A stretch of DNA of 64,000 nucleotides from Vairimorpha necatrix (lineage: Eukaryota), in assembly GCA_036630325.1 (NCBI GenBank), contig CP142729.1, forward strand, positions 1,054,001 through 1,118,000, given 5' to 3'. Positions 16 to 53,689 of the stretch are shown one piece after another. A program made the position numbers and the translations under genes. The notes under the pieces were generated by a model that worked only from the letters and a program-made list of their open reading frames with translations, had not been told where the DNA came from and searched no databases. Within the stretch, counting starts at the first letter, position 1. Each line of letters opens with the position of its first letter.

Positions 16-263
16 ATTTGTAATTATATTTTTGATTCTATAAAATTAAGGACAAAGAAAATTAAATTTGTTTAAACTTCAACATATTGATTATTTACTT
101 TTTCCCCTTAGACATACCCATTGAATAATACCCACTTAATAAAAGGATTTTGTTAAAAATTTGCCAAAAATTTAAATTACTGAAAATGAGTTTTATTATT
201 TATTTGTTTATATGTTTTAAAGAGTCGCACTCAGACAGGAGAAGTTTAAAATATGAATGTATG
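16..263. repeat. Dispersed direct repeat, copy 1 (copy 2 at ~3010-3259)
   Basis: Shared blocks such as tttgtttaaacttcaacatattgattatttac and cttaataaaagga..ttgttaaaaatttg are colinear over ~250 bp. Confidence 0.85.
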
Positions 264-2122: not shown

Positions 2123-2883
2123 GGTGCGGTTAGGCAGTAGTATAATGTGATGCTCCAATTCAAAATTGTCTTTGTTTGAATCCCCGGGGGCACCGAAATT
2201 GATTCTCTTTTCTATGATGCAGTTGAAACAACTCAGACGCCTTTAATATTTAGGAATATCATTAAATTGATTCAATGAAACTTGTATGTGCCCAGCAAAG
2301 AGATAATTAATATATAGAGTAGAAACGCATCTCAGGGCCAGAAACATTATCACCCTCGTTGACTAAGTATTACATAAAAGTGCATGATTGATACGAGCTA
2401 TTTGGACTTATGGCCAATACACTCAAGAGTAAAAATCTAGAGCTACTAAGAAATTAGACGAAATGAGGCAATCGAAGCTCTAATAGTTTCTATTCTAATG
2501 TTCTGTAACGCGATGGCCGTATCTAGTGTACGTTTTGGATCAAAGCAGCACAATTAAAATGTTGAGCTAGTGATGTAGTGGTGTAAGTAGTCGCAAGTGT
2601 GATTTGGATGAATGAAAAGACCTTTGATTTAGTACAATGATGTCTCCTCTCGGGTTCATAAACTCATGGCCTTAAGAATATCCGCTGTGAAATCACTTTC
2701 GACGTTATTTAAGGTATATTTTAAAATATTCTCTTGTTCCGTAGTCCATGAATACGGCGTGGCATCCTACACCGATAACTTTTTTGGTAAATTATAGTGA
2801 GTAAAAATCTCACTAAATCTGTTGAGATAAGGATCACACTTAAATACTTATGATCCCTACGCCTTACTTGCAAAGAAAAAAAA
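2123..2883 (+). mobile_element. tRNA-derived SINE, full-length degenerate copy
   Basis: Decayed tRNA head (ggtgc...gaatccccgggggcacc), body colinear with the reverse complement of 26350-27138, tail tagtgagtaaaaatctcac...ttacttgcaaagaaaaaaaa. Confidence 0.85.
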
Positions 2884-15113: not shown

Positions 15114-16637
15114 TTATGGGCCAATTAGTTCACGTAGAACTACATTTTTGACATTGCCCCTGTTTTCCCCCAACTTGACTCTCAAGTTTTCACTCTTCTT
15201 CACTCTTGACAAAGCTACGTATAATTGACCATGAGAAAATACATCCTCAGGCAAATACACTCCCACTTTGTCAAAAGACTGTCCCTGTGCTTTATGTATT
15301 GTCATCGCATATGACAATACCACAGGAAACTGTCTTCTTTTAAGTACAAACGGAAGAAGAGTGTCACTTGGCATCATGTCTATCTTTGGTATAACAGCAA
15401 GGGTGCCGCTTCCCCTTCCTGTTATTATTTCACCTAAGATGTAATTATCTTTAAGACCTTTTATCTTCAATCTGGTCCCATTTAATAATCCATTCTTAGG
15501 ATCAATATTGCGTAACAACATCACTATTGCCCCTATCTTCAATACTAACTTATGTGGAGGAAGTCCTGATGGCTGTTGCATGTTCAAGAACTCAAGAGGA
15601 AATCTCAGTTGTTCTTCGATATCCTCTGATTCTATAGCATCAGAACTCACATATACCCTCGAAGATCCATTAAGTAGGTTTAACACTTTGGCATTCAATT
15701 CATTTGCATGTTCATTTTTGCTCGTTAAGATAATCTTATCAAACAAAGAATCATCACCTGCTTCAATTTTGATTGTTCCAAAAATGCTATCGACTATGTC
15801 CCCTTCTTCAAGATATTCTTTGGGTATCTCCACACATCCTTTACTATCTCTAGTACGCCCCTCACCTATATCTAACAACCACTTATTAAACTCCAATTGA
15901 TTATAAGATCTCATGTTCGTTTCAAGCTTTAGTACACAGACATGTACCCAAAGTCTTGAACTAATTAATGAGTTCTCGATGATATCATTTGGAGTACCCT
16001 TCATTACAATGGTTGATGTCTGTCTAAAGTCACCACCCAACAATAGAGTTTTCCCTCCAAAGATATCATCATTGTCACAGAGTCTTTTAAGCACCTCATC
16101 TATTGCGTTCAATGCATGTTTTGACATCATTGAAACTTCATCTATTAGCAATAAAGAGGCCTTTATTATTTTCTCTGCTTCAGGAGTATTTCTTTTTAAT
16201 CTAGATACGCTGGTCTCTGTCAAAGGAACAGGAAGTTTCATACAGCTATGCATTGTTCTTCCTTTCTTTAGCAGATCTGCAGCAATACCTGTGGTTGCCA
16301 TTTGAATTGAAGATTTCCCATTCTTACTTAGATACTCAATCAGGACATTGTATAAATACGTCTTCCCCGATCCAGCTGGTCCATCTAAAAAGAATAAATT
16401 GCCCTTTTTATCAATATTATCTGTTATTTTATCAAAAGCATCCCTCTGCTTTGCATTTAGAGAGGAGATCATCTGATCTAGATCTTTTCCATTATCAGAG
16501 ATAGTTTTTGCCTTCACGATATAGTTAATCGGCTCATCTAAACCCAGAGCATTTAGACTCCATCCATGAGCATTGACAATATCTTTTAATCTACTTAATA
16601 TTTCGTCTCTACTATTCTGATCTAGATCTTCAGACAT
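15114..16637 (-). CDS. Helitron PIF1-family SF1 helicase domain (C-terminal part of RepHel)
   Basis: GPAGSGKT, LLIDEVSM, LGGDFRQ, RRQFP..YAMTIHKAQGQS, HGQLYVALSR. Confidence 0.95.
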   Translation of the reverse strand: MSEDLDQNSRDEILSRLKDIVNAHGWSLNALGLDEPINYIVKAKTISDNGKDLDQMISSLNAKQRDAFDKITDNIDKKGNLFFLDGPAGSGKTYLYNVLIEYLSKNGKSSIQMATTGIAADLLKKGRTMHSCMKLPVPLTETSVSRLKRNTPEAEKIIKASLLLIDEVSMMSKHALNAIDEVLKRLCDNDDIFGGKTLLLGGDFRQTSTIVMKGTPNDIIENSLISSRLWVHVCVLKLETNMRSYNQLEFNKWLLDIGEGRTRDSKGCVEIPKEYLEEGDIVDSIFGTIKIEAGDDSLFDKIILTSKNEHANELNAKVLNLLNGSSRVYVSSDAIESEDIEEQLRFPLEFLNMQQPSGLPPHKLVLKIGAIVMLLRNIDPKNGLLNGTRLKIKGLKDNYILGEIITGRGSGTLAVIPKIDMMPSDTLLPFVLKRRQFPVVLSYAMTIHKAQGQSFDKVGVYLPEDVFSHGQLYVALSRVKKSENLRVKLGENRGNVKNVVLRELIGP

Positions 16638-16652
16638 ATCTTCAAGAAACTT

Positions 16653-19418
16653 CTAAAAGAGCTCTTTGGTATTTTTTGGCTTATTAAAAGCACAAATATA
16701 TCCAAACAATGCTCTTATTATTGATGGGGACTCGGTTGCCACTGCCTCATCCAAAGCCCTTTCCCATTCTTTATCATCTTGAAGAAGTCCTCTCTCTTCC
16801 ACTGCTTCTGCAAAATAACTGTAAACTACACCATTTACAGTTCTCAAATCCTCATATGATTTAGCCCCCTTTACATTGATCAATAGGACTCTGAGGCTAA
16901 ATCTTTCCTTCTCTATTGGAGATACAGAATAAAGTCTAGTAATTATCTTACTATACTTATTCTTTCTCCTAATCCATTCTCCCTTTTTATATGTATAGTG
17001 ATAGGGTATCTCACTATACGAAAATTGACGTGCCCCTTCATCAACTTCATTTAATTTGAAGTAGGCTAAAAGAGGAGTCTGTCTAAGATCAGACAATCTA
17101 ACAGCTTCCTCTTCTCTGCCTTCTTCGAAAGTGATCAATTGTTCTTGTGGAAGATGCACAGGAAGTCTATGGATCTTATGAGATCTTCCATGCATCTTGT
17201 ATTCCATTAATCTCCAGGTAGCCTCTGGTGCTGAGACATATCTGGAATTCACAAAATGATCAATTTCATTGTTGTCGGTTATTCTCATTTCTGCACAATC
17301 AAATCCCTTGTAAATATACTTGAAAATATACTTTACTGAAATGATAGAAGTACAAACTTCTACATTGATATGACAGTTGTATTTTTCAAGCAAATAAGCA
17401 TTATAGGGGACCACGTTAGCATTAGTAACAATGTTTCCCCTTACATTGTACTCGGTCCCTCTTATTCTTCGGTATTCAGGATATCCGTCATTATTTATCT
17501 TTGTTTCAAAGTTATATTCTTTGGGATATTCTTTCGTGCAGACACCATTTTCCATGCATGGACTTGTCAAGTAACTTAGTCCACATGGTCCATGAATCAT
17601 ATGTTTTGTTACACAGTTGTGTAACATCTCATTTTCCATGGGAGATGGTATTTCTGCACTCACATACTTATCTATTCTTTCTTCATCCCGAATCTTATCC
17701 TTTAACATTATCAATATGTGAGCATGAGGAAGTCCACGTTTTTGAAACTCAATAGAATAGACATGAGCCACAACTTCCCCAAATACTCTTCCTGACAAAA
17801 TCTCCTCCATCATGCTTTTTAATTTCAAGTTAAAGACCTTTGCTACCAAATCAGGCCTATCAACTGCTGTCTGTCCCTCAAATAGATTCTCCTTTATCTC
17901 CTTCCAATTTGGATTGCAAGTCATAGTAATGAAAAGATCGGGCTTTCCGAAATTTCTTACAATTGACATTGCATCATGGTATCTCTCTCTCATATTTCTT
18001 GGAGATCCTTGGAAACTTGATGGTAAGATCACGGGCTTGGCAGAACTTTCTGACCCATTATTTACATAATCTACCAAACCTTTGTAAAGATCTACCCTCA
18101 ACTTCTTTTGATTTAATTTTATGAAGTTTAAATTATTTGCTTCTACTTGTAGATATGAATCTACAATCCATTGTTGAAACAACTTTCCTCCATAAAGCAA
18201 AGGGTTGAATCTATCTTTTCTTATGGATATCTGTGCTACTTTGTATTGTAACAAAGATATCTTCTGTGCCTCTCCTAGATAAGACTCCAGCCTCAAATTT
18301 GCATTCCATCCAGCTTCGCCATGTGGATAGAACAAAGTATATGTCATTGGATCTAAATGTGGACTTAAAATATCCAAGTGTAAATTATCAGAATTAAAAC
18401 CCTTGCTATATACTTTAATGTCCCTCTCAAATGGGGGTTCTCCATTTGGATCAGTGAAAATCATTGCGATTTCACTTGTAGAGGGAGCATTATATCTTCT
18501 CTGATCTCTATCTAAATTCTTATTAAAGACCATAGAAATGTCTTTAACTTCTTTCCCCACTTCCTTTTGCTCCTTTATTATTTCAGACATATTTTTATAC
18601 GCATTGGAATATGGATTGGCTGATCTTATAAATCCATCTAATTTGCTCATGATATATATATCACAATTTCTATTAGATGGATTCGTCATTCTTTGTGAGT
18701 TTGCCATATCACTATCCACTACATATAATTGGGCATATTTCTTTGGTGTATTAGATTCCATATTATTTACATTATAAGTGTTATGATACACTTGTCCATG
18801 TATTTTGAATACATATGGACCATTAGACACAGTTTCTATTTGAGCACCAAGAGAAGCAAAAGAAAGAGCAGCATTGTAAGATCTAATATTTTCTTTGAAG
18901 TTCTTTCCATCTTTATCTTTTCCAATGAATAAATTCTTAATCTCATTTGGGAAGTTTCTAGTTCTTTGTAATTTGACTTTCCCAAAATGACAGCAGCTTT
19001 TGTATAATCCATTACTGCTTGCTTCTCCAGCAAAATGTAATGCACCACAAAAGGCACATTCTTCTTTCAGATCTCCACAATAATGTTCGGCGTGGTTTCT
19101 GCTAGTAATTCTGCAAGCTAGATCTAGTTTTTCTGTCAAAGTTTGCATTGTTGTGTTATCTGTTAATCTAGCTGTTTTTTCTGTGCTGTTTGTTGGATTA
19201 AGAATTGTTTTGTTTTCGCCAGAGAAACTGAATATGAAATTCCTTTTTTTTGTTTCTCTGACATTTGTTTTTTTATTTTTTGTGTTATGTACAGAGGCAT
19301 TGGCCCCATAGAAAATAACATTGTCATTTTCAGTATTACTACATATCTCCTGAGAGATAGTGATAGTTGCTTTTGGTTGTTCACTAAAATCGCAATTTGT
19401 TTGATTTTTCGTAAACAT
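16653..19418 (-). CDS. Helitron Rep HUH endonuclease (N-terminal part of RepHel)
   Basis: PDLFITMTCNP, YSIEFQKRGLPHAH, KYIFKYIYKG and an N-terminal CxxC..CC motif. In frame with the helicase across a single TAG. CCCC precedes the ATG. Confidence 0.95.
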   Translation of the reverse strand: MFTKNQTNCDFSEQPKATITISQEICSNTENDNVIFYGANASVHNTKNKKTNVRETKKRNFIFSFSGENKTILNPTNSTEKTARLTDNTTMQTLTEKLDLACRITSRNHAEHYCGDLKEECAFCGALHFAGEASSNGLYKSCCHFGKVKLQRTRNFPNEIKNLFIGKDKDGKNFKENIRSYNAALSFASLGAQIETVSNGPYVFKIHGQVYHNTYNVNNMESNTPKKYAQLYVVDSDMANSQRMTNPSNRNCDIYIMSKLDGFIRSANPYSNAYKNMSEIIKEQKEVGKEVKDISMVFNKNLDRDQRRYNAPSTSEIAMIFTDPNGEPPFERDIKVYSKGFNSDNLHLDILSPHLDPMTYTLFYPHGEAGWNANLRLESYLGEAQKISLLQYKVAQISIRKDRFNPLLYGGKLFQQWIVDSYLQVEANNLNFIKLNQKKLRVDLYKGLVDYVNNGSESSAKPVILPSSFQGSPRNMRERYHDAMSIVRNFGKPDLFITMTCNPNWKEIKENLFEGQTAVDRPDLVAKVFNLKLKSMMEEILSGRVFGEVVAHVYSIEFQKRGLPHAHILIMLKDKIRDEERIDKYVSAEIPSPMENEMLHNCVTKHMIHGPCGLSYLTSPCMENGVCTKEYPKEYNFETKINNDGYPEYRRIRGTEYNVRGNIVTNANVVPYNAYLLEKYNCHINVEVCTSIISVKYIFKYIYKGFDCAEMRITDNNEIDHFVNSRYVSAPEATWRLMEYKMHGRSHKIHRLPVHLPQEQLITFEEGREEEAVRLSDLRQTPLLAYFKLNEVDEGARQFSYSEIPYHYTYKKGEWIRRKNKYSKIITRLYSVSPIEKERFSLRVLLINVKGAKSYEDLRTVNGVVYSYFAEAVEERGLLQDDKEWERALDEAVATESPSIIRALFGYICAFNKPKNTKELF

Positions 19419-20286
19419 AATGGGGGTAAAGAAAAAAAAAAGTATTTATAGTTTTTAAAATTAAAATTCCATTTTGGGAAAGAAGAAAACAAAAATGAGA
19501 AAATGATTTTTTATAAATAGCTTTGATATTAGTCTAAATATTAATTAATTGAGTTTGTTATTCAGTTGATAAATTTCTAATGTTTGTAAATCAACTTTAT
19601 TATGTTTGTTTCTTGTTTTGATTTTTGAATTTCCATTTCTGGTAGGAAGAATTAAAAAGGAGCAAATGTGATTTTTAGAAGTTAAGTATTATTATTGAAT
19701 CAACATAGCAGTGGTAAAGTTAATTCAGTAACAAATTTTAATCCAATTGAGTTAATTTCACACATTAGTAACAAATTTTTTCTACATTTTGTTTCATATT
19801 GTTTTTGTTTTCTTTTTCTAAAAGGAAGAAATTATAAAGGAGAAAATCATATTTCTAATAATTTCAAAAATGATTTATATACAAAATATAAATAATGTAT
19901 CTGGTCTAAAATTGTCTATAAAATACAGTGAAAGCATTTAATTTTGTTTTAAAACAAAAATTTTACCATTTTAAATTTTCTCTTTTTTTGAGTTTTAGGG
20001 GTAAAAAATTAAATAAAATTCTTTTATATATATGATTTATTTTATTCGCTTATCTTTTATAGTATTTTTCTTTGTACAACATCTCACCTATAATGCATAA
20101 AAAAGAAAACAAGTCAATTTAACATCTTAGAAGATGATTTTCAAAAAAAATTTAACAACAAGATACCGGACATTATAAATGTAAGTATGTTTTAAAAATT
20201 CTGTCAATTAAACAAAATATAAAGAACCATTGTAGTTCTAAAGAATTTTTATTCTATTTCCTAATGTCTTTAATACTAAAATTTAT

Positions 20287-21497: not shown

Positions 21498-23858
21498 GGT
21501 GTCCGGAGAATTCACCGACCATCAATTCACCGACATCAATTCACCGAAAATCAATTCACCGACAACAAATTCACCGACAACAAATTCACCGACCAACAAA
21601 TTCACCGACAACAAATTCACCGACAACAAATTCACCGAAAAATTGAAATATGTATTTTTTATGAGTATATTTATGATATACATATTTAATTTAAATTTTT
21701 TTTTTGTATGGATCATAAATATTGTGCAATATAGCATTTGAATATTACTATATTTATATAACTAAATAAATTAAAAAATAGGAAAAGTATCAAAATGATC
21801 ATAAACATAAAAAACTAATTAAAAATAATAGAAAACATAAAAATCTAATAATTTATTATTAAAATGTCAGATTATGGGCAATGGCACGAATATATTCTAT
21901 AATATTTTCTCGATTAAAATTGGACACTATATTTAGAAGTCTCGTTCTACAATCGCGATATTTTTTTTTAGACGTAGGAGCATTAAAACCAGACAAAAAT
22001 TGTTCTATTCGAACTTCATTTTGAGATTGTTCCTTTTTTAAGCAATTGATAAACTTCCAAATATTCAGGTGAGTACCACCAGCTTGCGACTCGAACCCAC
22101 GATGCCAACCTTCGACCGAGTTGTTAGTCCTCGGTAGACCATCTATTGTTCTGGAGTACATATTCCATATCTCTGATGCAAATTTCGGGGCTCGACGCTG
22201 TCTTCGGTTTGGGCGGCCAATCCAAGTATCTTCAAAATAATCTAAGACGGGCAGAGCTTCGATGGGCAGTATTCTGTAAGACAATTCTTCAAAAACTTCA
22301 ACAACAAAATTGGAAGGTACAAATGCTATGGCGGCCAGCGATCTTATTTGCAGTGCAAATTCTGGATCTGTATTGTACAGTAGTTTGAGTCCATGATTTT
22401 GAACGGCTCGAAAAATGCACTGTGAGAAATGAAAAAAGCATCCTTTTACACTTGCACCAGGAAACTGTACTGAAATAGCATTCATCATGGCTTTTTCAAA
22501 ATCTACAGTTATGGATTGCGGATTTAATGATAGTTCCAACTCTTTTAAAGTGCAAAGAAATTTAGAATACGTTTGCTCTAATTTATTTGGCAATAAAGCG
22601 AAGACCAAGGGAATAGAAGCACTTTGTTTTAGCCCGTGAATTGTGTACAGTTGATGAAATAATAATGGTACGGTTTTAAAGGTGCCATCTGCGTACCAGT
22701 GTTGACTATCTGCCAAAAGCCGTAAATTGTGAGTCGTCGAAAAAATTAAAATTCTTTTTTTATCTGGTCCAGAATCATATAGCAAAAAGGGTTCCCCTCT
22801 TGTCGTTTCTTTGAATTCGTCTGTGAATGTAATTTCTTGCCGCGAATTTAAGGAGTGCGGGGCTAGTTTCTGCAATTTGTCGAATTTACCGAACGCTACG
22901 CTTCATATTGTCAATCGATGGCAATTTTGGAGCTGCAGCATGGCTGCATAGAGATAAACAATCTGATATAATAGATTGTGGCGCTTCTCTAGAGCTTTTT
23001 GCCAAGGCTAGAACATTAGCATATATTTTATCGGCTTCGACTTTAGCAGCATCTCCCGAATGGTTGTGTTCGCCAAACACTTTAATTTCCCCATTAGACA
23101 TTGTAATCACTCTACACTTGCACTTGTACTTTTGATAGTATTCACATTTCCAATATATTTTGGATAGTTCCCAAACATCTTTTTTTTTAAAGAAAAGATG
23201 ACCTTCTAAAATTAATTTTTTCTTCCCCTTTTCTGAGAGTAAATATTCGATCTGCATTATTGAAATTAGGGGTTTAGAATTAAAAAGTTAAAATATTTAA
23301 AAAGAGTTGTGCCATTTTAAGTAAAGTATAGATCTTTCTTCGCAAACCTGCGCCTTACCAATTGTGCCTAGGATACCTTCATTGCACTTTGGTATCGAAT
23401 TGGATGAGACTTTATTACAATATGTCTAGATAGAACATTACACCCCAATGCAATGTAAAAACATTAATGTTACAAGTATACTAGTACATTTTATGTCATA
23501 ATTTTGAGGAATTGTTGTCGCGTTGTTTCATAATCTTTCTTTTCAGATTAATTTTTAATGAACATTTTGATACTTTTTCTATTTTTTAATTTATTTAGTG
23601 ATATAAATATAGTAATATTCAAATGCTATATTGCACAATATTTATGATCCATACAAAAAAAAAATTAAATTAAATATGTATATCATAAATATACCCATAA
23701 AAAATACATATTTCAATTTTTCGGTGAATTTGTTGTCGGTGAATTGCTGTCGGTGAATTTGTTGTCGGTGAATTTGTTGTCGGTGAATTGATTTTCGGTG
23801 AATTGATGTCGGTGAATTGATGTCGGTGAATTGATGGTCGGTGAATTTTCCTAGAACC
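21498..23858 (-). mobile_element. Mutator-like element (MULE) with ~300-bp TIRs containing 15-bp tandem repeats
   Basis: 9-bp TSD CAAACCAGG (21489-21497 and 23859-23867); TIRs ~21498-21802 and ~23558-23858; AATTCACCGACA(T/A)CA arrays at both ends. Confidence 0.93.
21859..23257 (-). pseudogene. FLYWCH + MULE DDE transposase, broken by one stop and one frameshift near 22850-22890
   Basis: YWKCEYYQKYKCKC..HNH (FLYWCH); WYADGTFK, ITVDFEKA, GCFFHFSQ, RTNNSVEGWH. Confidence 0.9.
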
Positions 23859-26349: not shown

Positions 26350-27138
26350 TTTTTTTTTCTTGCAAGTAAAAGGTAGGAGAAACCTTACATGGGGACCAGA
26401 GGGATTTGGGTGTGATTCTCATCCAACTGGTACTGTGAGATTCTTACTCACTAAAACTCCCTCCATACAACTTGCCGGTGCAGCAAGCTCTGCCGTATTC
26501 ATTGGACTTTGGCTCCGGGAGAACACTTTCCATCTATACCTCAAATCGCGTCCAGAGTGACCTCACAGCGGATATACTTAACGGGCATGGTTATCTATAA
26601 CCCGAGGAGAGACATCATCGTACTGACTCAAAGGACCAAACAATCATCCGTATTGCACACACGGCTCCTTACACGACCACATCACCAGCCCGGCGTTTTT
26701 ATTGGGCTGCGTTGACCACCAGTCTCCCACTAGTTTCGGCACCGTGTTACAAAATCATGTAGGATAGGGACCACGAGACCTTCTATTGCCCTACTTCGTC
26801 TAGTCTCTTAGTTGGCTCCAGGATCCCACTCTAGAGTGCACCAGCCATGGGCTCCAACTAGGCCGTACCCATTAGATACTTTTATGTATCATTAAGTCAC
26901 CAAAGAGTGATACTGCTTTTTGGCCTTGAGGTGCGTTTCTACACTAGATGCTAATCCCCTTGTGGCTGGACACACACAAGTTTCATTGAATCAACTTAAT
27001 GATTATCGTGGACATTTTCATCATCTGAGTTGTTCCAACTGCATCATAGAAAGTAGAAACAATTTTGGTGCCCCTGGGAATCGAACCCAGCCATTGCTCA
27101 ATGGAAGCATTGCATTCAACCACTGTGCTAAGGGCACC
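26350..27138 (-). mobile_element. tRNA-derived SINE, best-preserved copy (~790 bp)
   Basis: tRNA-like head 27066-27138 with A box TAGCACAGTGG and B box GGTTCGATTCC; GC-rich body; A-tail at 26350; three other copies in the window. Confidence 0.9.
27066..27138 (-). ncRNA. tRNA-like cloverleaf / Pol III promoter heading the SINE (probably not a functional tRNA)
   Basis: Acceptor stem GGTGCCC/GGGCACC+A, T-stem CTGGG/CCCAG with TTCGATT loop, anticodon loop TCCATTG (C33 and T37 non-canonical). Confidence 0.8.
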
Positions 27139-37148: not shown

Positions 37149-40100
37149 TGTTACAGGATGATAATCTAGTTACTGAGATTATCCTGTAATTACTTTATTG
37201 TAGATACTTACCCAAAGTATCTACTGTAAAATATTTACTATAAATAATAAATAAATATTTTACCCATCTAAAAATATTATGAAAAGGAAGGAGAAACTTT
37301 ATTTAACAAATGGCGACAACGAAGATGATAAGGAACCAGTAGAGAAACAAAAGACAAGGAATACAGTGGAGATGTTAGAAAAACAATTAGCTGCAATGAA
37401 GATCAACATCAGGGGTACATACAACTTCAGAAAATTTGATGGTAAAAGGACGGAAGCAGAAGAGTTCTTACTACAATTTAAACCATTTAGAGAATCTTGG
37501 ACTGAAGAAGAATATTTTGGTTTTGTAGAAACTAATCTCACTGGAAAAGCCCGACTCTGGTTTGAAGGCTCAAGATATAATGTGTTTGAAAGTGTAGTCG
37601 AGTTTGAACAACATTTCTTAGAATACTTCAGTCCCGAAGAAGTTTCTGGCAACAGTAAATTGTTGAATATACTATTACATAAGAAGCTGAGAGAATGTAA
37701 TAACGAGATATTATGGTTAGAAATTTACTCGATACACAAAAACATTACTATACCACTAAAAGATGTTATTAATACGGTAGTTATGAATATACCAGTTGGG
37801 AATGCAAATCGATACAGGGATTGTAAGAGTTGGATGGCAGTTTTGAAATTGGCAGTTAAGATAGATTCTGAGAATGAGAGTAAAGAACAATCTAAGATGC
37901 AAATTAGCAAGAATAAATCGGAAGATGCGAGAAGTAGTTTTCAAAAGAAATTGATTAGCTGTTATAATTGCAAAGGTCAACATTATAGAAGTAATTGTCC
38001 AGAACTATTAAAGAACAAATCGAACAATAAAATACAAACCAATACGGGTAACAGAAATGATTATAAGAAGTGTTCAGATAAGAAACTGATGACATTAACA
38101 TGTAGTAGTAAAGCAGCCAATGTCCCTAGATTTTTGGTGAAAATTGGCGGAGGAAAAGTACCAGCACTACTAGACTATGGAGCTGACATTAATTATATTA
38201 GTTACGACCTGGTGAAGATGTTAAATATCCCAATAGATATGGAAAATAGAATTTCGGTCAATTTAGCAACTAGAAAAGATAGCTCGGTTGGCATGTTAAA
38301 AGCGTTATTGCGTGATAAAAATAATCAGCACGCATACGAAACAGAATTTGCGGTAATGGAAGATCTTAATGAAAATATACTCATCGGTAGCATAACAAGT
38401 AGACATTTAGGCATTAAAGTTCATTGGGAAGAAAATGAAATTGAAATCTTTAATGATGGAACAAGGCTCAAATTGGAAACAGAAGAGTACAGTTTAAAAT
38501 CAGTAATAAGCGAGGAAATACCCATGGAAATAGAGGCATTAGAATGCAAGTTTGGTGAACATGAAGAAGTCAATAAAAATATTAAGTACTTACTGTATAA
38601 ATATATGAAAGAATCCGATAATAAGAAAGCCCTACCTTTTAGACATGATATTAAACTTAAAGATCAAAGTAAAACTATATGTTGTAAACCATATAGAAGA
38701 AATCCGCAACAGAATCTCATAATTAAAAATAAAATAGATGAGATGTTACAGAATGGATTGATACGAGAGAGCACGAGTAATTATGTTTCCCCTGTAGTGC
38801 TTGCACCTAAAAAAGACGGTGGTATGAGAATGTGTATTGACTATAGAAAGTTGAATGAAAACACAATCAGTACGCCATACCCGATCCCTCACATGGATGA
38901 AGCAATAGATGCTATCCAAGGGACAGATATGTACTCTACTTTAGATTTGGAGATGGGTTACCATCAGATCGAAATGAACCCAAGAGATATTCATAAAACT
39001 GCATTTATTGTAAAGCAAGGTGTATATGAATGGACTAAGATGCCATTTGGCTTAGTCAATGCCCCTTTTACGTTTCAGAAGATTATGAATTGGATATTTA
39101 AAGATATACTTTGGAGGAAAGTAGTTGTATACCTTGATGATATTTTAATATTCTCAAGAGGGAAAGACAAACATGTCGACGATGTGAGAGAAGTCCTGGA
39201 AATTTTGTCAAAATTTGGACTCAGACTTAACATGAAGAAATGTGCATTCGCAGTGAGTAAAATTGATTTTTTAGGACACACTGTAGAGAATGGAGAACTT
39301 AAAATTAAATCGGACCAATTGGATAAGGTTAACACCCTAGAAAATCCAAAGAACGTCAGCGACTTAAGAAAACTTTTAGGATTTATAGTATATTTTAAAC
39401 GATTTATACCATCATATACCATGAAGGCTATGCCGTTATTAAAAAGGTTAAAGAAAGGTAATTTTATATTTGGAGACGAAGAAGAAAAGGCTTTAGAGCT
39501 CCTGAAACAAGAAATATTAAATGCCAAACCTTTACTTTTACCAGATATGAATAAGACATTTTATTTATATACGGATGCCTCAGACATTGGAATTGCGGGA
39601 GTACTTACACAATTTACAGATACGGGAAAAGAAATGCCTATAACCTGGATAAGTAGAACGCTAAATAGCGCCGAAATTAATTACACTACAACTGAGAAAG
39701 AGTGTTTAGCTATTGTATGGTCTATTGAAAAACTTAAAGTATATTTGTTTAACAATTTTATCATCAGGACAGATCATAGTTCCTTAATATGGTTAATGAA
39801 ACAGAAAACACCTATAGGAAGATTGGCAAGATGGATAATGAAACTGCAAAACTATAAATATGAAATCGAACATATAAAAGGTTCAGATAACGTTTTGGCT
39901 GATGTACTTTCACGTGGTGTATTAGAAAATAGCCAATTAAGAAAGTGTCAAACAGTGGTTAAAAATGAAGAAAGAATAAATGTTGAAGAAGACAATGAAA
40001 CAATAATAAAACTGATACAGAGAGCACACTTAGAGCTTGGCCATGGAGGTATAGATTCTACTATAATGTACATCAGAAATATTGCGAGTGTACCAAATAT

Positions 40101-41216
40101 AAGAAACAGAGTAGTTGAATACATTCGTAACTGTGAAACTTGTAGAAGATTTAGAGACAAGACGTTGCAAAATAATATTAGACGTGTGGAAATAAAAAGT
40201 TCGTTCTATATGATTGGGTTGGATATAGTTGGTCCTTTACCCCCAACAGACGGTGGAAATAAATTTATTCTGGTAGGAACAGACTACCTAACTAAATGGG
40301 CAGAAGTGAGAGCTTTAAAAAGAAAAGATGCGGAATCTGTAGCGAAATTTATTTATGAAGAATTTTTATTGAGACATGGACCTCCGGAAGTAATCTTGAC
40401 TGATCAAGGACTTGAGTTTAACAATAAAATCATAAAGAAACTGTGTTTAATGATAAATACTAGAAAGTCGTTTACAAGCGCCTACCATCCAAGATGTAAT
40501 GGACAAACGGAGAGACTAAACCGTACACTTATTGCAAGGTTGGCTAAGATATGCAATGGAAGATGGTCAGAGTGGGATATGTTCCTACCAATCGCGCTAT
40601 ACGCATATAGGATAACACCACTAATAAAATTCAAGAGTAGTCCTTTTAGATTGTTATATGGGAGAGAGCCTAAGGATATAACTACGGAGAAAGAAGATGG
40701 TGGAGCAGCATTTATAGAAGAAAACGATACACTTAAGAAGATCGATTTGTTACGGAAAAAGTTACACGAAAAGGTTATAGAAGATAGAAATAGAGACATA
40801 CAACGCGCGAATGATAGAGTTAAAGGCAAAAATATTCAAGTAGGAGATGCGGTTATGAAGAAAAAGGAATCATTTGAAAAACTGAATAAGCTTGATGATA
40901 AATGGACAGGACCTTATCTGGTAAGAAGAAAGTTTGACTCTGGTGGTTTCGAGATCGAGGACATGTATGGAAAACTATTTCGGTATAATGAAAAAGACTT
41001 ACAACTAATTGAGAATTCAGATCCCACGGATTGGGAGAGTTTAAAGAAAGGGAGTATGTTACAGGATGATAATCTAGTTACTGAGATTATCCTGTAATTA
41101 CTTTATTGTAGATACTTACCCAAAGTATCTACTGTAAAATATTTACTATAAATAATAAATAAATATTTTACCCATCTAAAAATATTATGAAAAGGAAGGA
41201 GAAACTTTATTTAACA
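37149..41216 (+). mobile_element. Intact Ty3/Gypsy LTR retrotransposon with identical 160-bp LTRs
   Basis: LTRs 37149-37308 and 41057-41216 (TG..CA); TSD GTTTC; PBS-like TGGCGACAAC; PPT aaagaaagggag. Confidence 0.97.
37279..41097 (+). CDS. Single-ORF Gag-Pol polyprotein (gag, CCHC, PR, RT, RNase H, IN)
   Basis: CYNCKGQHYRSNC; LLDYGAD; YLDD; TDASD; HHCC motif with D..TDQG..E; GPY. Starts in the 5' LTR and stops in the 3' LTR. Confidence 0.95.
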   Translation: MKRKEKLYLTNGDNEDDKEPVEKQKTRNTVEMLEKQLAAMKINIRGTYNFRKFDGKRTEAEEFLLQFKPFRESWTEEEYFGFVETNLTGKARLWFEGSRYNVFESVVEFEQHFLEYFSPEEVSGNSKLLNILLHKKLRECNNEILWLEIYSIHKNITIPLKDVINTVVMNIPVGNANRYRDCKSWMAVLKLAVKIDSENESKEQSKMQISKNKSEDARSSFQKKLISCYNCKGQHYRSNCPELLKNKSNNKIQTNTGNRNDYKKCSDKKLMTLTCSSKAANVPRFLVKIGGGKVPALLDYGADINYISYDLVKMLNIPIDMENRISVNLATRKDSSVGMLKALLRDKNNQHAYETEFAVMEDLNENILIGSITSRHLGIKVHWEENEIEIFNDGTRLKLETEEYSLKSVISEEIPMEIEALECKFGEHEEVNKNIKYLLYKYMKESDNKKALPFRHDIKLKDQSKTICCKPYRRNPQQNLIIKNKIDEMLQNGLIRESTSNYVSPVVLAPKKDGGMRMCIDYRKLNENTISTPYPIPHMDEAIDAIQGTDMYSTLDLEMGYHQIEMNPRDIHKTAFIVKQGVYEWTKMPFGLVNAPFTFQKIMNWIFKDILWRKVVVYLDDILIFSRGKDKHVDDVREVLEILSKFGLRLNMKKCAFAVSKIDFLGHTVENGELKIKSDQLDKVNTLENPKNVSDLRKLLGFIVYFKRFIPSYTMKAMPLLKRLKKGNFIFGDEEEKALELLKQEILNAKPLLLPDMNKTFYLYTDASDIGIAGVLTQFTDTGKEMPITWISRTLNSAEINYTTTEKECLAIVWSIEKLKVYLFNNFIIRTDHSSLIWLMKQKTPIGRLARWIMKLQNYKYEIEHIKGSDNVLADVLSRGVLENSQLRKCQTVVKNEERINVEEDNETIIKLIQRAHLELGHGGIDSTIMYIRNIASVPNIRNRVVEYIRNCETCRRFRDKTLQNNIRRVEIKSSFYMIGLDIVGPLPPTDGGNKFILVGTDYLTKWAEVRALKRKDAESVAKFIYEEFLLRHGPPEVILTDQGLEFNNKIIKKLCLMINTRKSFTSAYHPRCNGQTERLNRTLIARLAKICNGRWSEWDMFLPIALYAYRITPLIKFKSSPFRLLYGREPKDITTEKEDGGAAFIEENDTLKKIDLLRKKLHEKVIEDRNRDIQRANDRVKGKNIQVGDAVMKKKESFEKLNKLDDKWTGPYLVRRKFDSGGFEIEDMYGKLFRYNEKDLQLIENSDPTDWESLKKGSMLQDDNLVTEIIL

Positions 41217-41323: not shown

Positions 41324-44300
41324 TGTTGATATTTTTATATTTTTATATTTTTATTACCCCAATTTTTAAGATGAGTAAGGAAGTGGAGGAGAAGAATCTC
41401 ATAAATAAAATGGTGGAGAATATGAAAACAAAGCCAGTTGAAACTACCATCAAAAAGGAAAATTTGATGAGTGAATGTAGAAGGTTAGAAAATATGACCT
41501 TCTTCAGAGAAATGTGCGATGAGAGGAAAATCGAATATTTGATTGGAAGAGCTGACTACTTTATAGTAGATTGGCACCATGAGTTGATGGACACTAAAAG
41601 GAGGTGTTCGTTGGATTACGAAAAATGGAAAGAGTTGGCTAGAACCGAATTTGAAAAGAAAAGGCTTACTATAGGGGAGTTATATCGCATGGTACAACAA
41701 GATGAAGAAACTATACCAACGTTTATAGAAAGAGTTAGAGATTCAGCCAGAGAGTACAAACTTGCAAAAAAGGAAATCATTGATATAATTACAGCTGGAC
41801 TTAAAACAGGAATGGGCGATGTAAAAAGATTTTTATTGGCAAATAGTGATATTACAGATGAAAATCTAGAGACAATCAAGAAATTGGAAAGTGAGTGTAC
41901 AGCTGAATTACACCGAATTAATGATTTAAAATTGATGATTGAAAAAATTGATACTCTTAAATTTCAGGGCAAGAAAACAGTTAAATGTTACAACTGTAAT
42001 AGCTTAGGCCATTATGCTAGAGATTGTCGAAAGCCAAAGAGAAGTGAAAATCTTAGGAGAAACATTAATGAAATTACTGAAGAACTTAGAGATTTATTAA
42101 ATAAAGAAAATTCAGTTTACATTTGTGGAGAGAAGGTTCCAGTATTGTTTGATACAGGTGCAAATTATAATTTTATAAGTAGTGCTAGTGTAGCAAGATT
42201 CAACCTTTTAACACATAATAACACAAGGAAATTAAGATTTTGGACATGTTTGGAAGAATCATTTGTGATAAAAAGACATGTTATATTAAATTATACATAT
42301 AAAGGACATTTATATAGATCAAAGTTTTATATATTGCCAAAAGTACGAACTGAAAAAATCCTATTTGGTAGAGAAACATTAATTAGACTTAATAATATTG
42401 AGAAACTGAGTTATACATGTGAAATCAAAACACCTGAAGGCTCAAAAGTGATCGAAAAGATATATAATTTACCAAAGAAATTGGAAGCAGGAATTGAAAT
42501 TGCTATTAATAAATTATTAGAAAAGGGATATATACAAAACTCAAAATCAACGTGGGTTAGTAATTTGAGACCCGTGATAAAGCCAGATGGCACTGTAAGG
42601 GTTACAACCAATTTAATAGCACTTAATAGGTTGGTAGAACAGGATAATTATTCTTTACCAAGAATAGATGAAATCCTTTGTAATTTAAGAGACATGACAG
42701 TATTTTCTAAATTGGATTTGAAGGATGGATTTTTTCAAATTCCATTGGCACCGAAAGATAGATATAAAACGGCATTCAGATATAAACATAAATTATATGA
42801 GTGGAAAGTAATGCCACAGGGGTTTAAGAATGCTCCAGCAATATTTCAACGAAAAATGGATAAAGTTTTGAGAGATGAAATTGGTAAAAGTTGTTTCTGC
42901 TACGTAGATGATATTCTAATATTTGGAAAAACTGCAAAAGAGCATGACGAATCATATAATAGAATTCGAAAACTTTTACTAGAAAATGGTCTCAAAATCA
43001 ATGAGGAAAAGTGTGTATTTAGACAATCCGAAGTTCTATTCCTGGGATACAAAATTAAACACAACATCATTATTCCGCTCATAGATAAGATGCAAGCTAT
43101 TGAGGATTTAAAACCACCTAAGGACAAAAAACAGATTCAAGAATTTTTAGGTGCCATAAACTATTATAGAAAATTCATTAAAAACTGTTCAATTGTATGT
43201 GGTCCTTTGTATGAATTATTGAAAAATAAGAAAGAATTCAAATGGACGAATATAGAAGAGAACGCTTTTAAAGAAGTTAAAAGAATTTTTATTAATACGG
43301 TAGGACTATTTCAGCCAGATTGGTCAAAAGAATTTAAACTAGAGACCGACGCTTCAAATGAAGGTATAGCTGCAATACTCTCGCAAAATTTTGATGGAGA
43401 TGAAAAACCAATTGCATTTGCATCGAGAAGGTTATTAGAACATGAGATTAAATATAGTATCAGCGAAAAGGAATGTCTGGCCATGTTATGGGCAATGGAA
43501 CACTTTCGATATTTTTTATACGGTACACATTTTGAAATTATCACAGATCATAAAGCGTTAGAAGCATTAAATAAGGGTCAAATTAAGTCTCTGAGAATAC
43601 AAAGATGGCTAGATAGAATGTCATTGTTTAATTTTAGAATTAGATATAGACGAGGTAAAGAAATTCCTCACGTGGATTGCCTAAGTCGAAATTCTGGATT
43701 GGCAACAAACGACAAGAGATTAAATTTACACGAAGGATCGATAAATCAATGTGAAGAAATGGACGAAAAGAAAATGCTTCAGATGATTCGCGAAATTCAT
43801 AATGAGTTACTTCACCGTGGGATACAATCAGTAAAATATGAGATGTATAAAAGAGGTATTAATATAAAAAATTCACAAAAATTGATTAGAAAAATTATAG
43901 ATTCGTGTGAAACATGCAACGAGTACAATTCTAAAAAATCTAAACAACACATATTTGTTACCTCGTATGCAAAGGGAGAAAAAATTGCTATAGATATAAT
44001 AGGTCCAATAAACACACAATACATTATAACTGGGATTGATTATTTTACGAGAAAAGGATTTGCTAAAGTGATAAATAAGAGAAAAGATGAAAATGTAGTT
44101 AACTTTCTAAAAGAAATAAGTTCATCTATGCCTTTGAAGACATTGATCCTGGATCAATCGAAAGAAAATCTCAGTAGTAAGGTAAAAATGTTTTGCCAAG
44201 CAAATAAAATAGAATTACATTATACCACACCTTTCCATCACCAGTCAAATGGGCGTGTAGAAAGGTTTAATCGTACTTTACAAGATTTAATTTATAAAAA

Positions 44301-44851: not shown

Positions 44852-45556
44852 TTTTTTTTTCTTTGCAAGTAAAGATAGGGAGATACCTTACATAAACACC
44901 AGTATATGTTGTTGTCTGATATTTAACTAACTGTTACTGTGAAATCTTATTCACAAAATCTCCCTCCTTATAACTTGTTAAGGTTAAACTTCGCCCGTAA
45001 ATGTTGACTAAAGCCATAGAATAATTTTCCATCTATACCCCAATTTGTATCCGGATTGACCTCATAAGAAAAATATTTATGGGAATTGTTTTAATACCCC
45101 GAAAAGCGACATCATTATATAAGTTCAAAGGCCTACAATTATTTTCTATCGCATTCATAACAACTTTAACAAACGGAGCTGTCGTTTTTATTGGACTACG
45201 TTGGGCGCTATTCTGCTGGCAGTTTAGATATCGTGTTACAGAATTCTGTAAAGTAGTGTCACAGGAATTTTTTATTTTTCTACTTAGTCCAGTCTCTCAA
45301 TAAGATCTGGGTTCATACGCCGAGTGTATCAGTCATAAGCTTGAACTAGACCGCTTTAAACTGTTTTTTTATTTATAATAATCATCTCAAAGAAATTTTT
45401 GCCTTTAAATACATCTTTACACTCGATAAGAATCCCAGCATGGCAGAACTATCACAAATATATTAAATTAACTATATTTAATTGGCAACATAAAAGCATC
45501 GAATTATTTTTATTCGCATCATAGAAAGTAGAAACTTTTCTACACCTCTGGGATTC
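44852..45556 (-). mobile_element. tRNA-derived SINE, AT-eroded copy with most of the head lost
   Basis: Colinear with 26350-27080 (ttgcaagtaaa..ccttacat, ttccatctatacc, gtttttattgg.ct.cgttg, gcatcatagaaagtagaaac). Confidence 0.85.
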
Positions 45557-50720: not shown

Positions 50721-50864
50721 AGGATACGGCGGAGTTTGATACCACCAAGTTACATGATGGAAGTTTTAGTGAGTAATGATCATATAGTATCAAATGAAAA
50801 GGGAACATTCCTGTCTCTGGTCCTTAGTAAGGAATCTCGCTACCTTTTACTTGCAAATAAAAAA
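50721..50864 (+). mobile_element. SINE 3' tail fragment
   Basis: atacggcggag..gttttagtgagtaa..ctctggtcc..ctaccttttacttgcaaataaaaaa matches the SINE tail. Confidence 0.8.
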
Positions 50865-53689
50865 TGTATTAAAGTTGTTACAGTCATTATAGTGTATAAT
50901 TTTCGTTCTTTTAGTCATACGATGGCAGGATAGAGTAAAACAGGTCTCAAACATAGAACTTTTTTTTGTAGTACAAAATGCAAACATTTTCGTCAGATTT
51001 ATCTTACTTATTAAGCCGATTAGTTGATAGTAATTTCTTATGATGAATAAATACCAATTATAAATAGTTTTATTAGGGAAGAAGTGCTAAACCATTATAA
51101 ATTATTACTATACTATGTAAAAAACATATGAATACACATAAGAGATATAACAGACTAAAAAGTTGTTTTATTTAGCATTGAGTTAATGAATTATAAATAT
51201 TAAACAACTATTTTATAATATAATCGTCAGTGCAGTGCATAATGTCTCTATAAAACAAACTACCGTTACAAAACTACATATATAAAGTTCATAGAGATTA
51301 TTAAATTTAATTACGTTTACTTATGAATTTTGAAGAAATAAAAATAGAGACGATTGATTATGATTATAAGATATGTAATGTTTAAAAACAATGCTAAACA
51401 TGAAGATTTAAAACTATTTTGATGGTCTAATCGGTGTACTGAACTCAGATATCTTCTATTCTAATAGCTCATAATTTTAATCAAAAGTGTCAAAAACATC
51501 GAGGGTTGAAAAAGTTGACGTTGACATTTGTGTATATGTGTGACAATAAAGAGTTTATGCCATCTAAAGTACATCATTATTACATAATTATACAACTCTA
51601 CCAAACATTATTTACTTTTTATTAGAATTGAACAGCTGTTACTTTTTTTGAAGAAATTGTTTATGTCACTGTGACGAGTTTGATGGGAACGTTGTTTGCC
51701 AAATTTACTATATATGACCCATGCCAAACAAAAAGTACAGATAAATATTAATACACAAGCTAAGAGGTAAATCGATATTTGTATATGAAGAATCAAACAC
51801 AAGATTTTTTTTTTGATCTTGTTTGTATAAATATTTTTTTTTACTCCTCCCCCTAAATAATTACCATGGTTTGAAGTTATTTTAAATTTGTTATGAATTT
51901 CGTGGTCCGATACAAGTTGTACTTTCGCGAAATTCCCACCATTTTTACCTTAAAAAAGATGGGGATTTCATGTAGATGTATGAACATGGGTTTAATATCA
52001 TATTTTAGTGGTGTGTAAAATTATGAAAAATGGTTTTTTTCATTGATAAACAGTACATTTGCCCATTTGTATAAATGCAGCAAATATTTGCAATCTATTT
52101 CGTTGCAGCAATTTTCTTTTCTGCTCCTAAATTGAAATTTTTCCCCCTTTGAAACCACCACTAATTGAATTGATATTTAGTTCAAGAAGCGCGCTCAAGT
52201 CTTCTACTAAATTCAATGATGGGCGTTGAACACTCTGAATGTGCCATAGAGCACATACTGCTTAGCAGATGTATAGCCTCCTTATTGTTTTTTTTTGTTT
52301 CTTTTTCTGTTAGTTTGCTCTTCTGTGGTAGTGATTCTACCCGCTTTCGCTATTTATTTAATTTATATTCACCTTCCGTACAAAAATAAAATTCGTTTTT
52401 TATACAAAATTTATTACACTCAAAAAATTCATATTTTCTTTTTTACTAATTTTAATAGTTCACGATAACTACATTATTTAATTAAACATACAATTCCAAC
52501 CTTTGTAGATTAACTTCTTCCACAATATAACCTTGAGCTATAGACAGAATATGCTAAATTATAGTGTGTTTTAGATTACTATTGTTATAAAAGAATTTTA
52601 CGCTATAGATATTCATTTAAGTACCTAAACAGTACTTGGAGTTTTTATCTGCATACAAAACTTGTTTTATTTGTTTGAGACGAAGCAATGATTTGCATAT
52701 TTATTTTTACCATCTTTAAAAAAATATTATTAATAATTCACTTTTAATATTTATAAATTCTTTGAGAGTCTATTACATGGATTTCAGAAGTAACTCCGGA
52801 AACTGTCAGAAGAGATTGTAAGCGTATCTTGGGAAAATTCATTAGTAAGTAGATATTATATGATATCCGAATAATGTTTTTTTAATATAATAAAAAAACA
52901 TCATATTTCTCTCTTAAATTTTTCAAGTAAGGAATTATTAAAACCAAAATAACTTATTGTAATGATGTTTCTTGTTTATATGTTATATATTTTGGCCAAC
53001 CATACAACAAACATATGGGGGTTTCAGAACACATAGCCTAATTAATCCATTTCCTTTAACTATGATATCCGGTTGGAGGTAGCGGAATTTTACAAGAAGA
53101 ATCTATGATATGAAAATTCACATTATTTATAATGATCAAATCTATGTCACGAAACACAAGAGGACTTATATCTTTGTAATTATACATGAAGGCATGGCCA
53201 GGCTGCATGCTCGGGGCTAAAATAAGCTATAAGGTACTTGAGTTATTGAAAAATACCAGCTAAATAAGAAGTGAACAAGGAATTAAGGTAAAAAATTATG
53301 CAGAGATAGCAAGAAAAGATTATACATATTATAAAAAAGTATTTGGAACTTAATATCAGAGCCATTTGATAAATATGCGATGATTAAAGTCTACAGAATG
53401 ATACTAATAATATATAGTATTTTATAAAAATAGTAATCAAATAATTAAATTTCAGTAAATCATTTAAAGTATATGCATGAGCATCGAATCCTAATAGATC
53501 ACATCTTTATACTTTAGTTATTGATGATGTTAAAAACGAGAATAAAATACTTTATTTGGATATAATATTAAAAACTTACTTACTAATTACTTTTCACAAG
53601 ATACGCTTACATTCTCTTGGACAGTTTTCGAAGTCTCTTCTAGAATCTACACAATGGACTCTCAAATACTCCTTCCTGTTCAGTATCAA

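What the first reader, a model, noticed from the sequence alone, without database searches (positions are those of the whole stretch)
26350..27138. tRNA-headed SINE family in a putative microsporidian genome, GC-rich and possibly host-derived
Seen: a ~790-bp non-coding element with a 73-nt cloverleaf head, A and B boxes and an A-tail, in four copies (2123, 26350, 44852, 50721). This copy is visibly much more GC-rich than its surroundings. From memory, the tail motif GTTTTAGTGAGTAAGAATCTCAC resembles the 3' ends of insect R1-clade LINEs and lepidopteran SINEs; I could not verify this. Inference: the SINE was acquired from an arthropod host or depends on an R1-like LINE. I am not aware of SINEs being well described in microsporidia.
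Basis: partly seen in the sequence, partly recalled or inferred. Interest (0 to 1): 0.75.

Follow-up and report, generated by a model that had tools for sequence, protein, structure and literature searches.

The report
Microsporidian SINE with shared RNA tail
This is one copy of an abundant, recently active non-coding jumping element (a SINE) of a microsporidian parasite; its tail comes from a retrotransposon of the parasite itself rather than from an insect host, and it carries a folded RNA module that also turns up in unrelated retrotransposons.

Summary
Confirmed: a 789-bp tRNA-headed, A-tailed retroposon. It has at least 147-179 copies in the 15-Mb genome, target-site duplications in 44 of 68 copies examined and a subfamily 99.6-100% identical. 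The scan had already noted this family on other DNA of this genome. New here is the tail's donor: a resident A-tailed APE-RT LINE. The SINE keeps that LINE's last 16 codons (13 of 16 residues match a V. ceranae-labelled homologue). No intact copy of the LINE was found, so the present enzyme source is open. Host or R1 origin is not supported, and GC content tracks copy age. The 'R1-like' motif is one arm of a four-way-junction RNA module found in 87 metagenome stretches, often just after Ty3 or Ty1 pol genes and in two circular permutations. Its helices covary and its two facing U-runs match in length. It weakly resembles the Drosophila R2 3'UTR model, below threshold. My best guess is an ENE-like poly(A) clamp; this is untested. 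The SINE is an ordinary kind of element; the module is the interesting part.

The parts
27066..27138 (-). tRNA-derived head (7-bp acceptor stem, D arm, T arm; anticodon arm decayed); parent isotype unresolved, best Ala(TGC) or Leu(TAA) of the same genome
   Evidence: compensatory D-stem change between subfamilies visible
27120..27130 (-). A box of the internal Pol III promoter
   Evidence: sequence, Rfam alignment; function inferred
27077..27087 (-). B box of the internal Pol III promoter
   Evidence: sequence, Rfam alignment; function inferred
26524..27065 (-). ~540-nt non-coding body of unknown origin; no Rfam family, no unusual folding of the whole element (z -0.07)
27029..27058 (-). most conserved body block, directly behind the head (0.90 against a mean of 0.74 over 13 diverged copies)
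26476..26523 (-). remnant of the last 16 codons of the donor LINE ORF
26360..26473 (-).
26350..26358 (-). A-tail (9 nt); no target-site duplication at this copy
2123..2883 (+). old near-full-length copy, 72% identical, GC 0.36 (end approximate)
44852..45556 (-). old copy, 64% identical, head not recognisable, GC 0.33
50721..50872 (+). 3'-terminal fragment only (~150 nt, 72%)

Best explanation
A home-grown tRNA-derived SINE of a Vairimorpha microsporidian. (1) Pol III reads it from the A and B boxes in the head (boxes shown; transcription inferred). (2) The last ~165 nt were taken from a resident A-tailed APE-RT LINE ('LINE D', G000:C6:721036-724444), including its final codons and 3'UTR (shown by homology). 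(3) That tail folds into a four-way junction closing next to the A-tail (supported by covariation). (4) A LINE-D-type protein reverse-transcribes the RNA at a nick, leaving an A-tail, 12-18-bp duplications and some 5'-truncated copies (products shown; enzyme inferred). (5) New copies start at ~47-48% GC like the LINE and drift towards the AT-rich genome (shown). For the module itself I favour an ENE-like clamp on the element's own poly(A) tail (about 40%; inferred).
For: TSDs in 44 of 68 copies with an intact 3' end against 2 of 204 swapped-flank controls; 39 of the 44 are 12-18 nt with at most one mismatch. Nine copies are 99.6-100% identical to their nearest neighbour, 8 of them with a TSD of their own, and have tails of 21-30 nt against a median of 12. 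LINE D matches element positions 629-723 at 77%, E 1.7e-14; the translated SINE tail matches 13 of 16 C-terminal residues of P0003/P0125. LINE D ends in an A-tail and one short copy has a ~13-nt duplication. The three other non-LTR families found end in T- or TA-rich tails and share no 3' sequence with the SINE. Of 120 homologues listed, 18 carry an organism label: 5 Vairimorpha, 9 Smittium, 1 Amphiamblys, 1 Ectocarpus, 2 lizards at 28-30%, no insect. GC runs from 0.48 to 0.33 as identity falls from 1.0 to 0.57.
Against: No intact LINE D was found. The best copy lacks residues 1-379 of the 1521-aa relative, including the start of the endonuclease, and the second is decayed (31 of 108 candidates scored), yet the SINE is very young. 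The last ~70 nt of SINE and LINE D agree in structure more than in sequence (127 of 210 aligned columns identical over the whole compared stretch). 102 of the 120 homologues are unlabelled, and the nearest ESM Atlas cluster by features is mostly Arthropoda where known (7 of 56 members; no alignment). The head is only ~67% identical to the best of 48 distinct genomic tRNAs. One T4 run lies inside the tail, and T-run depletion is not significant (P~0.3). This copy has no TSD.
Confidence: 0.8

Rival explanations
1. The SINE was imported from an arthropod host, or relies on an insect R1-type LINE.
For: Microsporidia do exchange transposons with animals (PMC4202319 passages; PMC3614468 passages). 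The tail module weakly matches the Drosophila R2 3'UTR model. The Atlas neighbour cluster is arthropod-leaning.
Against: The tail carries the codons of a LINE shared with V. ceranae. No PF14529 match at E<=0.001 among 21 candidates. The motif is absent from Drosophila R1 conserved blocks and occurs in Ty1 and Ty3 elements. Copies span 57-100% identity, which points to long residence. The two runs with most of the element also hold pieces of flanking single-copy parasite DNA.
Confidence: 0.07
2. The tail came from LINE D, but today's copies are made by another resident enzyme acting on the A-tail: the T-tailed LINE with many intact 1242-aa ORFs, or the 1199-aa single-ORF family. Not exclusive of the main origin story.
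For: No intact LINE D in the assembly, while intact ORFs of the other families exist. The 1199-aa family also shows ~12-15-nt duplications.
Against: Those families end in T or TA tails and share no 3' sequence with the SINE. The LINE-D-derived module is still intact in the youngest SINEs. An intact LINE D may sit on a haplotype not in this assembly (inference).
Confidence: 0.2
3. Function of the module: a recognition signal for the element's own reverse transcriptase, as the R2 3' end is for R2 protein.
For: R2 3' sequences are needed for protein binding and TPRT, and their structure is conserved in non-autonomous derivatives (PMC3414825 abstract and passages). The SINE kept exactly this part of the LINE.
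Against: The same module lies after pol in Ty1 and Ty3 elements, which do not use target-primed reverse transcription (established knowledge); unrelated RTs are unlikely to share one ligand.
Confidence: 0.25
4. Function of the module: a tRNA-elbow mimic (T-loop docking on the small hairpin loop) that recruits a host factor, or a self-cleaving ribozyme of an undescribed class.
For: The conserved arm is a 5-bp stem with a 7-nt loop that in LINE D and L276 has the tRNA T-loop form. One permutation has cloverleaf order. Circular permutation is common among small ribozymes (own knowledge).
Against: No Rfam ribozyme family matched the module. Cleavage between pol and the polypurine tract would cut an LTR element's genomic RNA (inference). 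No clear covariation between the two loops. Neither idea explains the matched U-run lengths.
Confidence: 0.2

Closest known systems
tRNA-derived SINEs with LINE-derived 3' tails (stringent type, as described in PMC5786205, passages read)
   Same: tRNA head with A and B boxes, non-coding body, tail homologous to a LINE 3' end, A-tail, TSDs, age-structured subfamilies.
   Different: Long (~780 nt); host is a microsporidian; the tail keeps the LINE's last codons; the partner seems nearly extinct in the assembly while the SINE is young.
Drosophila R2 3'UTR element (Rfam RF00524)
   Same: Model positions ~91-206 align block for block: G-rich helix, U4A linker, hairpin, variable arm, small hairpin, U-run; both sit just before an A-tail.
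   Different: Scores of 16.5-26 bits are below the gathering score of 38; 1 of 15 and 0 of 20 further loci hit. R2 has a ~32-nt insert where this module has a 7-nt loop. Homology is not established.
ENE elements of transposon RNAs (Evade; PMC12501189 passages read; Tycowski 2016 recalled, not held)
   Same: U-runs on facing strands next to G-C pairs; position in the 3'UTR of LTR retrotransposons; poly(A) nearby.
   Different: The U-runs here border a four-way junction with two conserved hairpins, not a simple internal loop; 4 against 3 U is short; found also in a LINE and a SINE; triple helix not shown.
Insect R1-clade LINEs and lepidopteran PxSE/HaSE SINEs
   Different: Drosophila R1 conserved 3' blocks lack the motif; HaSE tails are assigned to RTE in PMC5786205; LINE D relatives appear to have one long ORF of ~1465 aa.

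Membership tests
tRNA-derived SINE | 5' head related to tRNA with A and B boxes | tested here: met
tRNA-derived SINE | Non-coding, non-autonomous | tested here: met
   longest stop-free frame 86-91 codons in two young copies; only a 16-codon LINE remnant
tRNA-derived SINE | Dispersed copies with A-tail and TSDs, no TIRs or LTRs | tested here: met
   44 of 68 against 2 of 204; hits on all 12 contigs; not met at this particular copy
tRNA-derived SINE | 3' tail shared with a LINE | tested here: met
tRNA-derived SINE | Transcription by RNA polymerase III | not testable with these tools
   only promoter boxes seen; T-run depletion not significant
tRNA-derived SINE | Mobilisation in trans by the partner LINE | not testable with these tools
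   inferred from tail homology; no intact partner found
R1-clade-dependent or insect-derived SINE | Tail matches conserved R1 3'UTR blocks | tested here: not met
   Drosophila R1 blocks only; lepidopteran R1 not available
R1-clade-dependent or insect-derived SINE | Tail donor most closely related to insect elements | tested here: not met
   labelled nearest homologues are Vairimorpha and Smittium; 102 of 120 unlabelled; no tree with R1 references could be built
R1-clade-dependent or insect-derived SINE | Whole-element homologue in arthropod genomes | not testable with these tools
   no Dfam, Repbase or insect genomes
RF00524 R2 RNA element | Score at or above gathering (38 bits) | tested here: not met
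   16.5-26 bits; none
ENE (poly(A)-binding triple helix) | U-rich strands facing each other next to G-C pairs | tested here: met
   27 of 38 loci have 5' run = 3' run + 1, permutation mean 12.7; G-C-rich helix
ENE (poly(A)-binding triple helix) | Simple internal loop flanked by two helices | tested here: not met
   upper side is a multi-helix junction
ENE (poly(A)-binding triple helix) | Binds poly(A) and slows deadenylation | not testable with these tools
   needs bench assays

The most novel reading that the evidence does not exclude
The tail holds an undescribed, circularly permutable four-way-junction RNA that Ty1/copia, Ty3/gypsy, an APE-LINE, this SINE and perhaps Drosophila R2 all use at their 3' ends for one RT-independent job, most likely clamping their own poly(A) tail. 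Such a portable module could be swapped between retroelement classes, and it would suggest a second role for the long-studied R2 3'UTR structure.
Probability: 0.35. Interest if true: 0.82.

Novelty: new variant of a known kind. Interest (0 to 1): 0.58.

Why it matters
The SINE itself is a new member of a familiar class in a group where I found SINEs only as a line in an annotation table (N. bombycis, 0.18%). It makes up roughly 1% of this parasite genome (estimate from 147-179 copies), was active very recently and gives insertion markers. A young SINE without a visible intact partner is a testable puzzle. The larger point is the tail module: one RNA fold recurring in LTR and non-LTR elements in two permutations points to a shared, unexplained requirement of retroelement RNAs and can be tested with a ~110-nt transcript.

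Tried and rejected
Looking for the partner through the exact tail motif failed: 40 of 40 fetched loci (the 40 of 74 exact hits not already) were SINE copies. The abundant T-tailed LINE was rejected as tail donor (local score 25 against shuffles 32+/-5), as were two T/TA-ended single-ORF families. A composite 'SINE plus T-LINE tail' element at 9 loci was rejected because the loci share flanks, up to 1.5 kb or more, i.e. they are parts of a larger duplicated unit. No viral contig holds the motif. No Rfam family fits the body and whole-element folding is unremarkable. My strict junction test passed 38 of 80 metagenome loci against 1-5 of 80 shuffled, but the SINE and LINE D tails failed it because their small hairpin or registers are imperfect; unconstrained folding gives the junction for both. 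One search held one copy in the wrong orientation and is disregarded. The module model found no hit in the other G000 LINE families or in the 9 LTR-type loci tested (those loci may stop short of the 3'UTR). RF00524 over the genome gave nothing, and neither did its control. Expression: no RNA holder listed. In run X3 (kind guessed as DNA) depth on the element is far above the flanking gene and higher at the 3' end, but contig depth cannot show expression, so I do not count it. No empty-site joint was listed. The tRNA parent could not be fixed.

Full report
1. Observation. The element lies at 27138->26350 on the minus strand. It starts with a 73-nt cloverleaf (Rfam tRNA 29.9 bits) with A and B boxes and ends in 9 A. 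Its GC is 0.465 against 0.308 for the window. The three other copies are real but decayed: 72% (2123), 64% without a recognisable head (44852) and a ~150-nt 3' piece (50721). This copy has no target-site duplication. It joins an IS1595/Merlin-type transposase fragment upstream to what looks by eye like a Ty3 pol fragment downstream (no Pfam hit), so it was probably rearranged after insertion (inference).

2. Family. The genome is 15.0 Mb in 12 contigs. A DNA search scored 40 of 356 candidates and gave 45 matches, 41 of them near full length at 92-100%, this copy included. A tail 22-mer hits 147 places and a body 25-mer 179, against 0 for reversed controls. Of 68 fetched copies with an intact 3' end, 44 have a TSD (39 of them 12-18 nt, at most one mismatch) against 2 of 204 swapped-flank controls. 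A few 5'-truncated copies keep a TSD (L039, L050). Nine copies form a very young subfamily, 99.6-100% identical, two of them identical with different flanks, with tails of 21-30 nt against a median of 12. GC falls from 0.48 to 0.33 as identity falls to 0.57, and private changes favour GC>AT 212 to 142. These are the products of target-primed retroposition, so the family is a SINE in every respect testable here. Earlier notes of this scan report the same family on other DNA of this genome (8 shown of 32 that fit the look-up).

3. The tail donor. The exact motif led only to SINE copies (40 of 40). RT searches gave four non-LTR families. Three end in T- or TA-rich tails and share nothing with the SINE 3' end. 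The fourth, LINE D (G000:C6:721036-724444; 1092-aa open frame with partial APE, RT and zinc finger), ends in an A-tail and matches element positions 629-723 at 77%, E 1.7e-14. The shared stretch starts inside the ORF: the SINE tail translates to 13 of the last 16 residues of the V. ceranae-labelled homologue. The protein is identical to a V. necatrix-labelled record and 79% identical to V. ceranae; of 120 homologues listed, 18 are labelled (5 Vairimorpha, 9 Smittium, Amphiamblys, Ectocarpus, 2 lizards), none insect. Against this, most homologues are unlabelled and the nearest Atlas cluster by features is arthropod-leaning on 7 of 56 members. LINE D is 45% GC, which accounts for the SINE's GC without a host. 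It is nearly gone from this assembly: one 5'-truncated open copy, one decayed copy and four short 3' pieces; nothing covers residues 1-379 of the 1521-aa relative (31 of 108 candidates scored). What drives the young subfamily is therefore open.

4. Host or R1 origin. The conserved 3' blocks of Drosophila R1 (supplement 1 of PMC3414825, read) do not contain the motif. It was not found in the 12 supplementary files of PMC8010984 (two main-text sections read) or in main texts of the library. The HaSE supplements could not be read and may bear on this. The two runs holding most of the element also hold pieces of flanking single-copy DNA (for X3 a 579-nt contig with 7 differences), so they contain the parasite or a close relative and do not show a host-borne copy. 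Insect genomes and Repbase were not searchable.

5. The motif is an arm of a widespread RNA module. A degenerate pattern hit 87 metagenome stretches (80 fetched, 51 non-redundant) and no viral contig. Two positions left free in the pattern pair Watson-Crick in 80 of 80. Of 115 ORFs of 150 aa or more, 78 were scanned; 30 of the 80 loci carry Ty3- or Ty1-type pol domains and none matches LINE D. In 24 of 28 measurable cases the module lies 11-383 nt behind the pol stop, and in 10 of 30 a purine tract plus TG follows. The fold is a four-way junction: closing helix, U4A linker, 5-bp stem with a 7-nt T-loop-like loop, 3-nt linker, variable arm, 3-4-bp hairpin, U-run. It occurs in two circular permutations, 17 and 21 of the 38 non-redundant loci with a small-hairpin call (13 of 51 had none). 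On 20 sequences of the SINE-like permutation 83.7% of cells pair against 73.9+/-1.3 in shuffles, with 14 of 18 pairs changed on both sides (0 of 500 shuffles). The structure was derived from these sequences and one helix was selected by the pattern, so this leans in its favour. A strict test passed 38 of 80 loci against 1-5 of 80 shuffled, but not the SINE or LINE D tails. The two facing U-runs match: 27 of 38 have the 5' run one longer than the 3' run, permutation mean 12.7, none of 100,000 reaching it (loci are not fully independent). Rfam RF00524 (Drosophila R2 3'UTR) aligns block for block but below its cut-off (16.5-26 bits against 38) and misses most loci.

6. Mechanism. Shown: head, boxes, LINE-derived tail, TSDs, recent amplification, GC decay, module structure by covariation. 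Inferred: Pol III transcription, mobilisation by a LINE-D-type protein, and the module's job. For that job I put about 40% on an ENE-like poly(A) clamp: matched U-runs beside G-C pairs, position in LTR 3'UTRs and next to A-tails, compared with the Evade ENE (PMC12501189, passages). I put about 25% on RT recognition as for R2 (PMC3414825), about 20% on a tRNA mimic or ribozyme, and the rest on something else.

7. Literature. N. bombycis has a 'SINE' row of 28,669 bp with no description in the passages seen (PMC3614468). The main texts of PMC4202319 and PMC7313128 do not contain the word; PMC11585130 reports none. Searches (listings only) showed no characterised microsporidian SINE, and no paper describing this module across retroelement classes. 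Subscription papers are not covered, the TE ENE survey of 2016 was not held (recalled), and the original R2 3'UTR structure paper was not read, so prior description is possible.

8. Verdict. The SINE is a new member of a known kind, already seen by this scan; the host-transfer idea is unlikely (about 7%). The resident, nearly extinct tail donor and the permutable tail module raise the finding to a new variant of a known kind. Interest 0.58.

Noticed in passing
G000 clusters, e.g. C1:488-497k, C3:840-862k, C6:552-584k and 704-724k, C11:613-675k, C12:499-545k (L101-L120): A two-ORF APE-RT LINE ending in poly(T) forms head-to-tail arrays of full and 5'-truncated copies in a few clusters per contig; possibly centromeric. 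Both long LINE D copies are followed directly by pieces of it.
   Followed up: partly
L193:1501, L194:1841, L196:1501: Three short LINE D copies (77-92%) begin at the same position ~350 nt from the 3' end: an RT stop site or a small non-autonomous family.
   Followed up: no
L030, L019, L018: SINE inserted into the B box of another SINE head with a clean TSD (L030); tandem heads upstream of a full copy (L019).
   Followed up: no
L293-L301: A duplicated unit holding an old SINE plus T-LINE 3' pieces occurs at 9 loci; in L295 the SINE part is young-type (90%) in the same 3' context, suggesting gene conversion or recombination.
   Followed up: partly
L245:925-1012 and 239-261 (-): A metagenome contig has an HDV-like ribozyme (sub-threshold, E 0.004) ~660 nt upstream of the module and an A-tail: the layout of an R2 SIDE.
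   Followed up: no
window 27029-27058; L033:1504-1535: The block behind the head is nearly unchanged even in a copy only 57% identical overall; function unknown.
   Followed up: partly
window 21505-23851: MULE transposon with long terminal inverted repeats built of 15-bp tandem units.
   Followed up: no
window 15114-19445: Helitron Rep and Pif1 helicase frames, adjacent, separated by one stop.
   Followed up: no
window 37149-41216 and 41324-44778: Two adjacent LTR retrotransposons with identical terminal repeats (160 and 87 nt) and open 1280- and 1121-aa frames: recent insertions.
   Followed up: no
L169; L193:2557-2660: Intron-containing tRNA called Leu(AAG) by ARAGORN; the Rfam alignment suggests anticodon UAU (Ile).
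   Followed up: no
L171:2420-6054: Single-ORF non-LTR family (1199 aa, intact in one fetched copy) with T/TA tails and ~12-15-nt duplications.
   Followed up: partly
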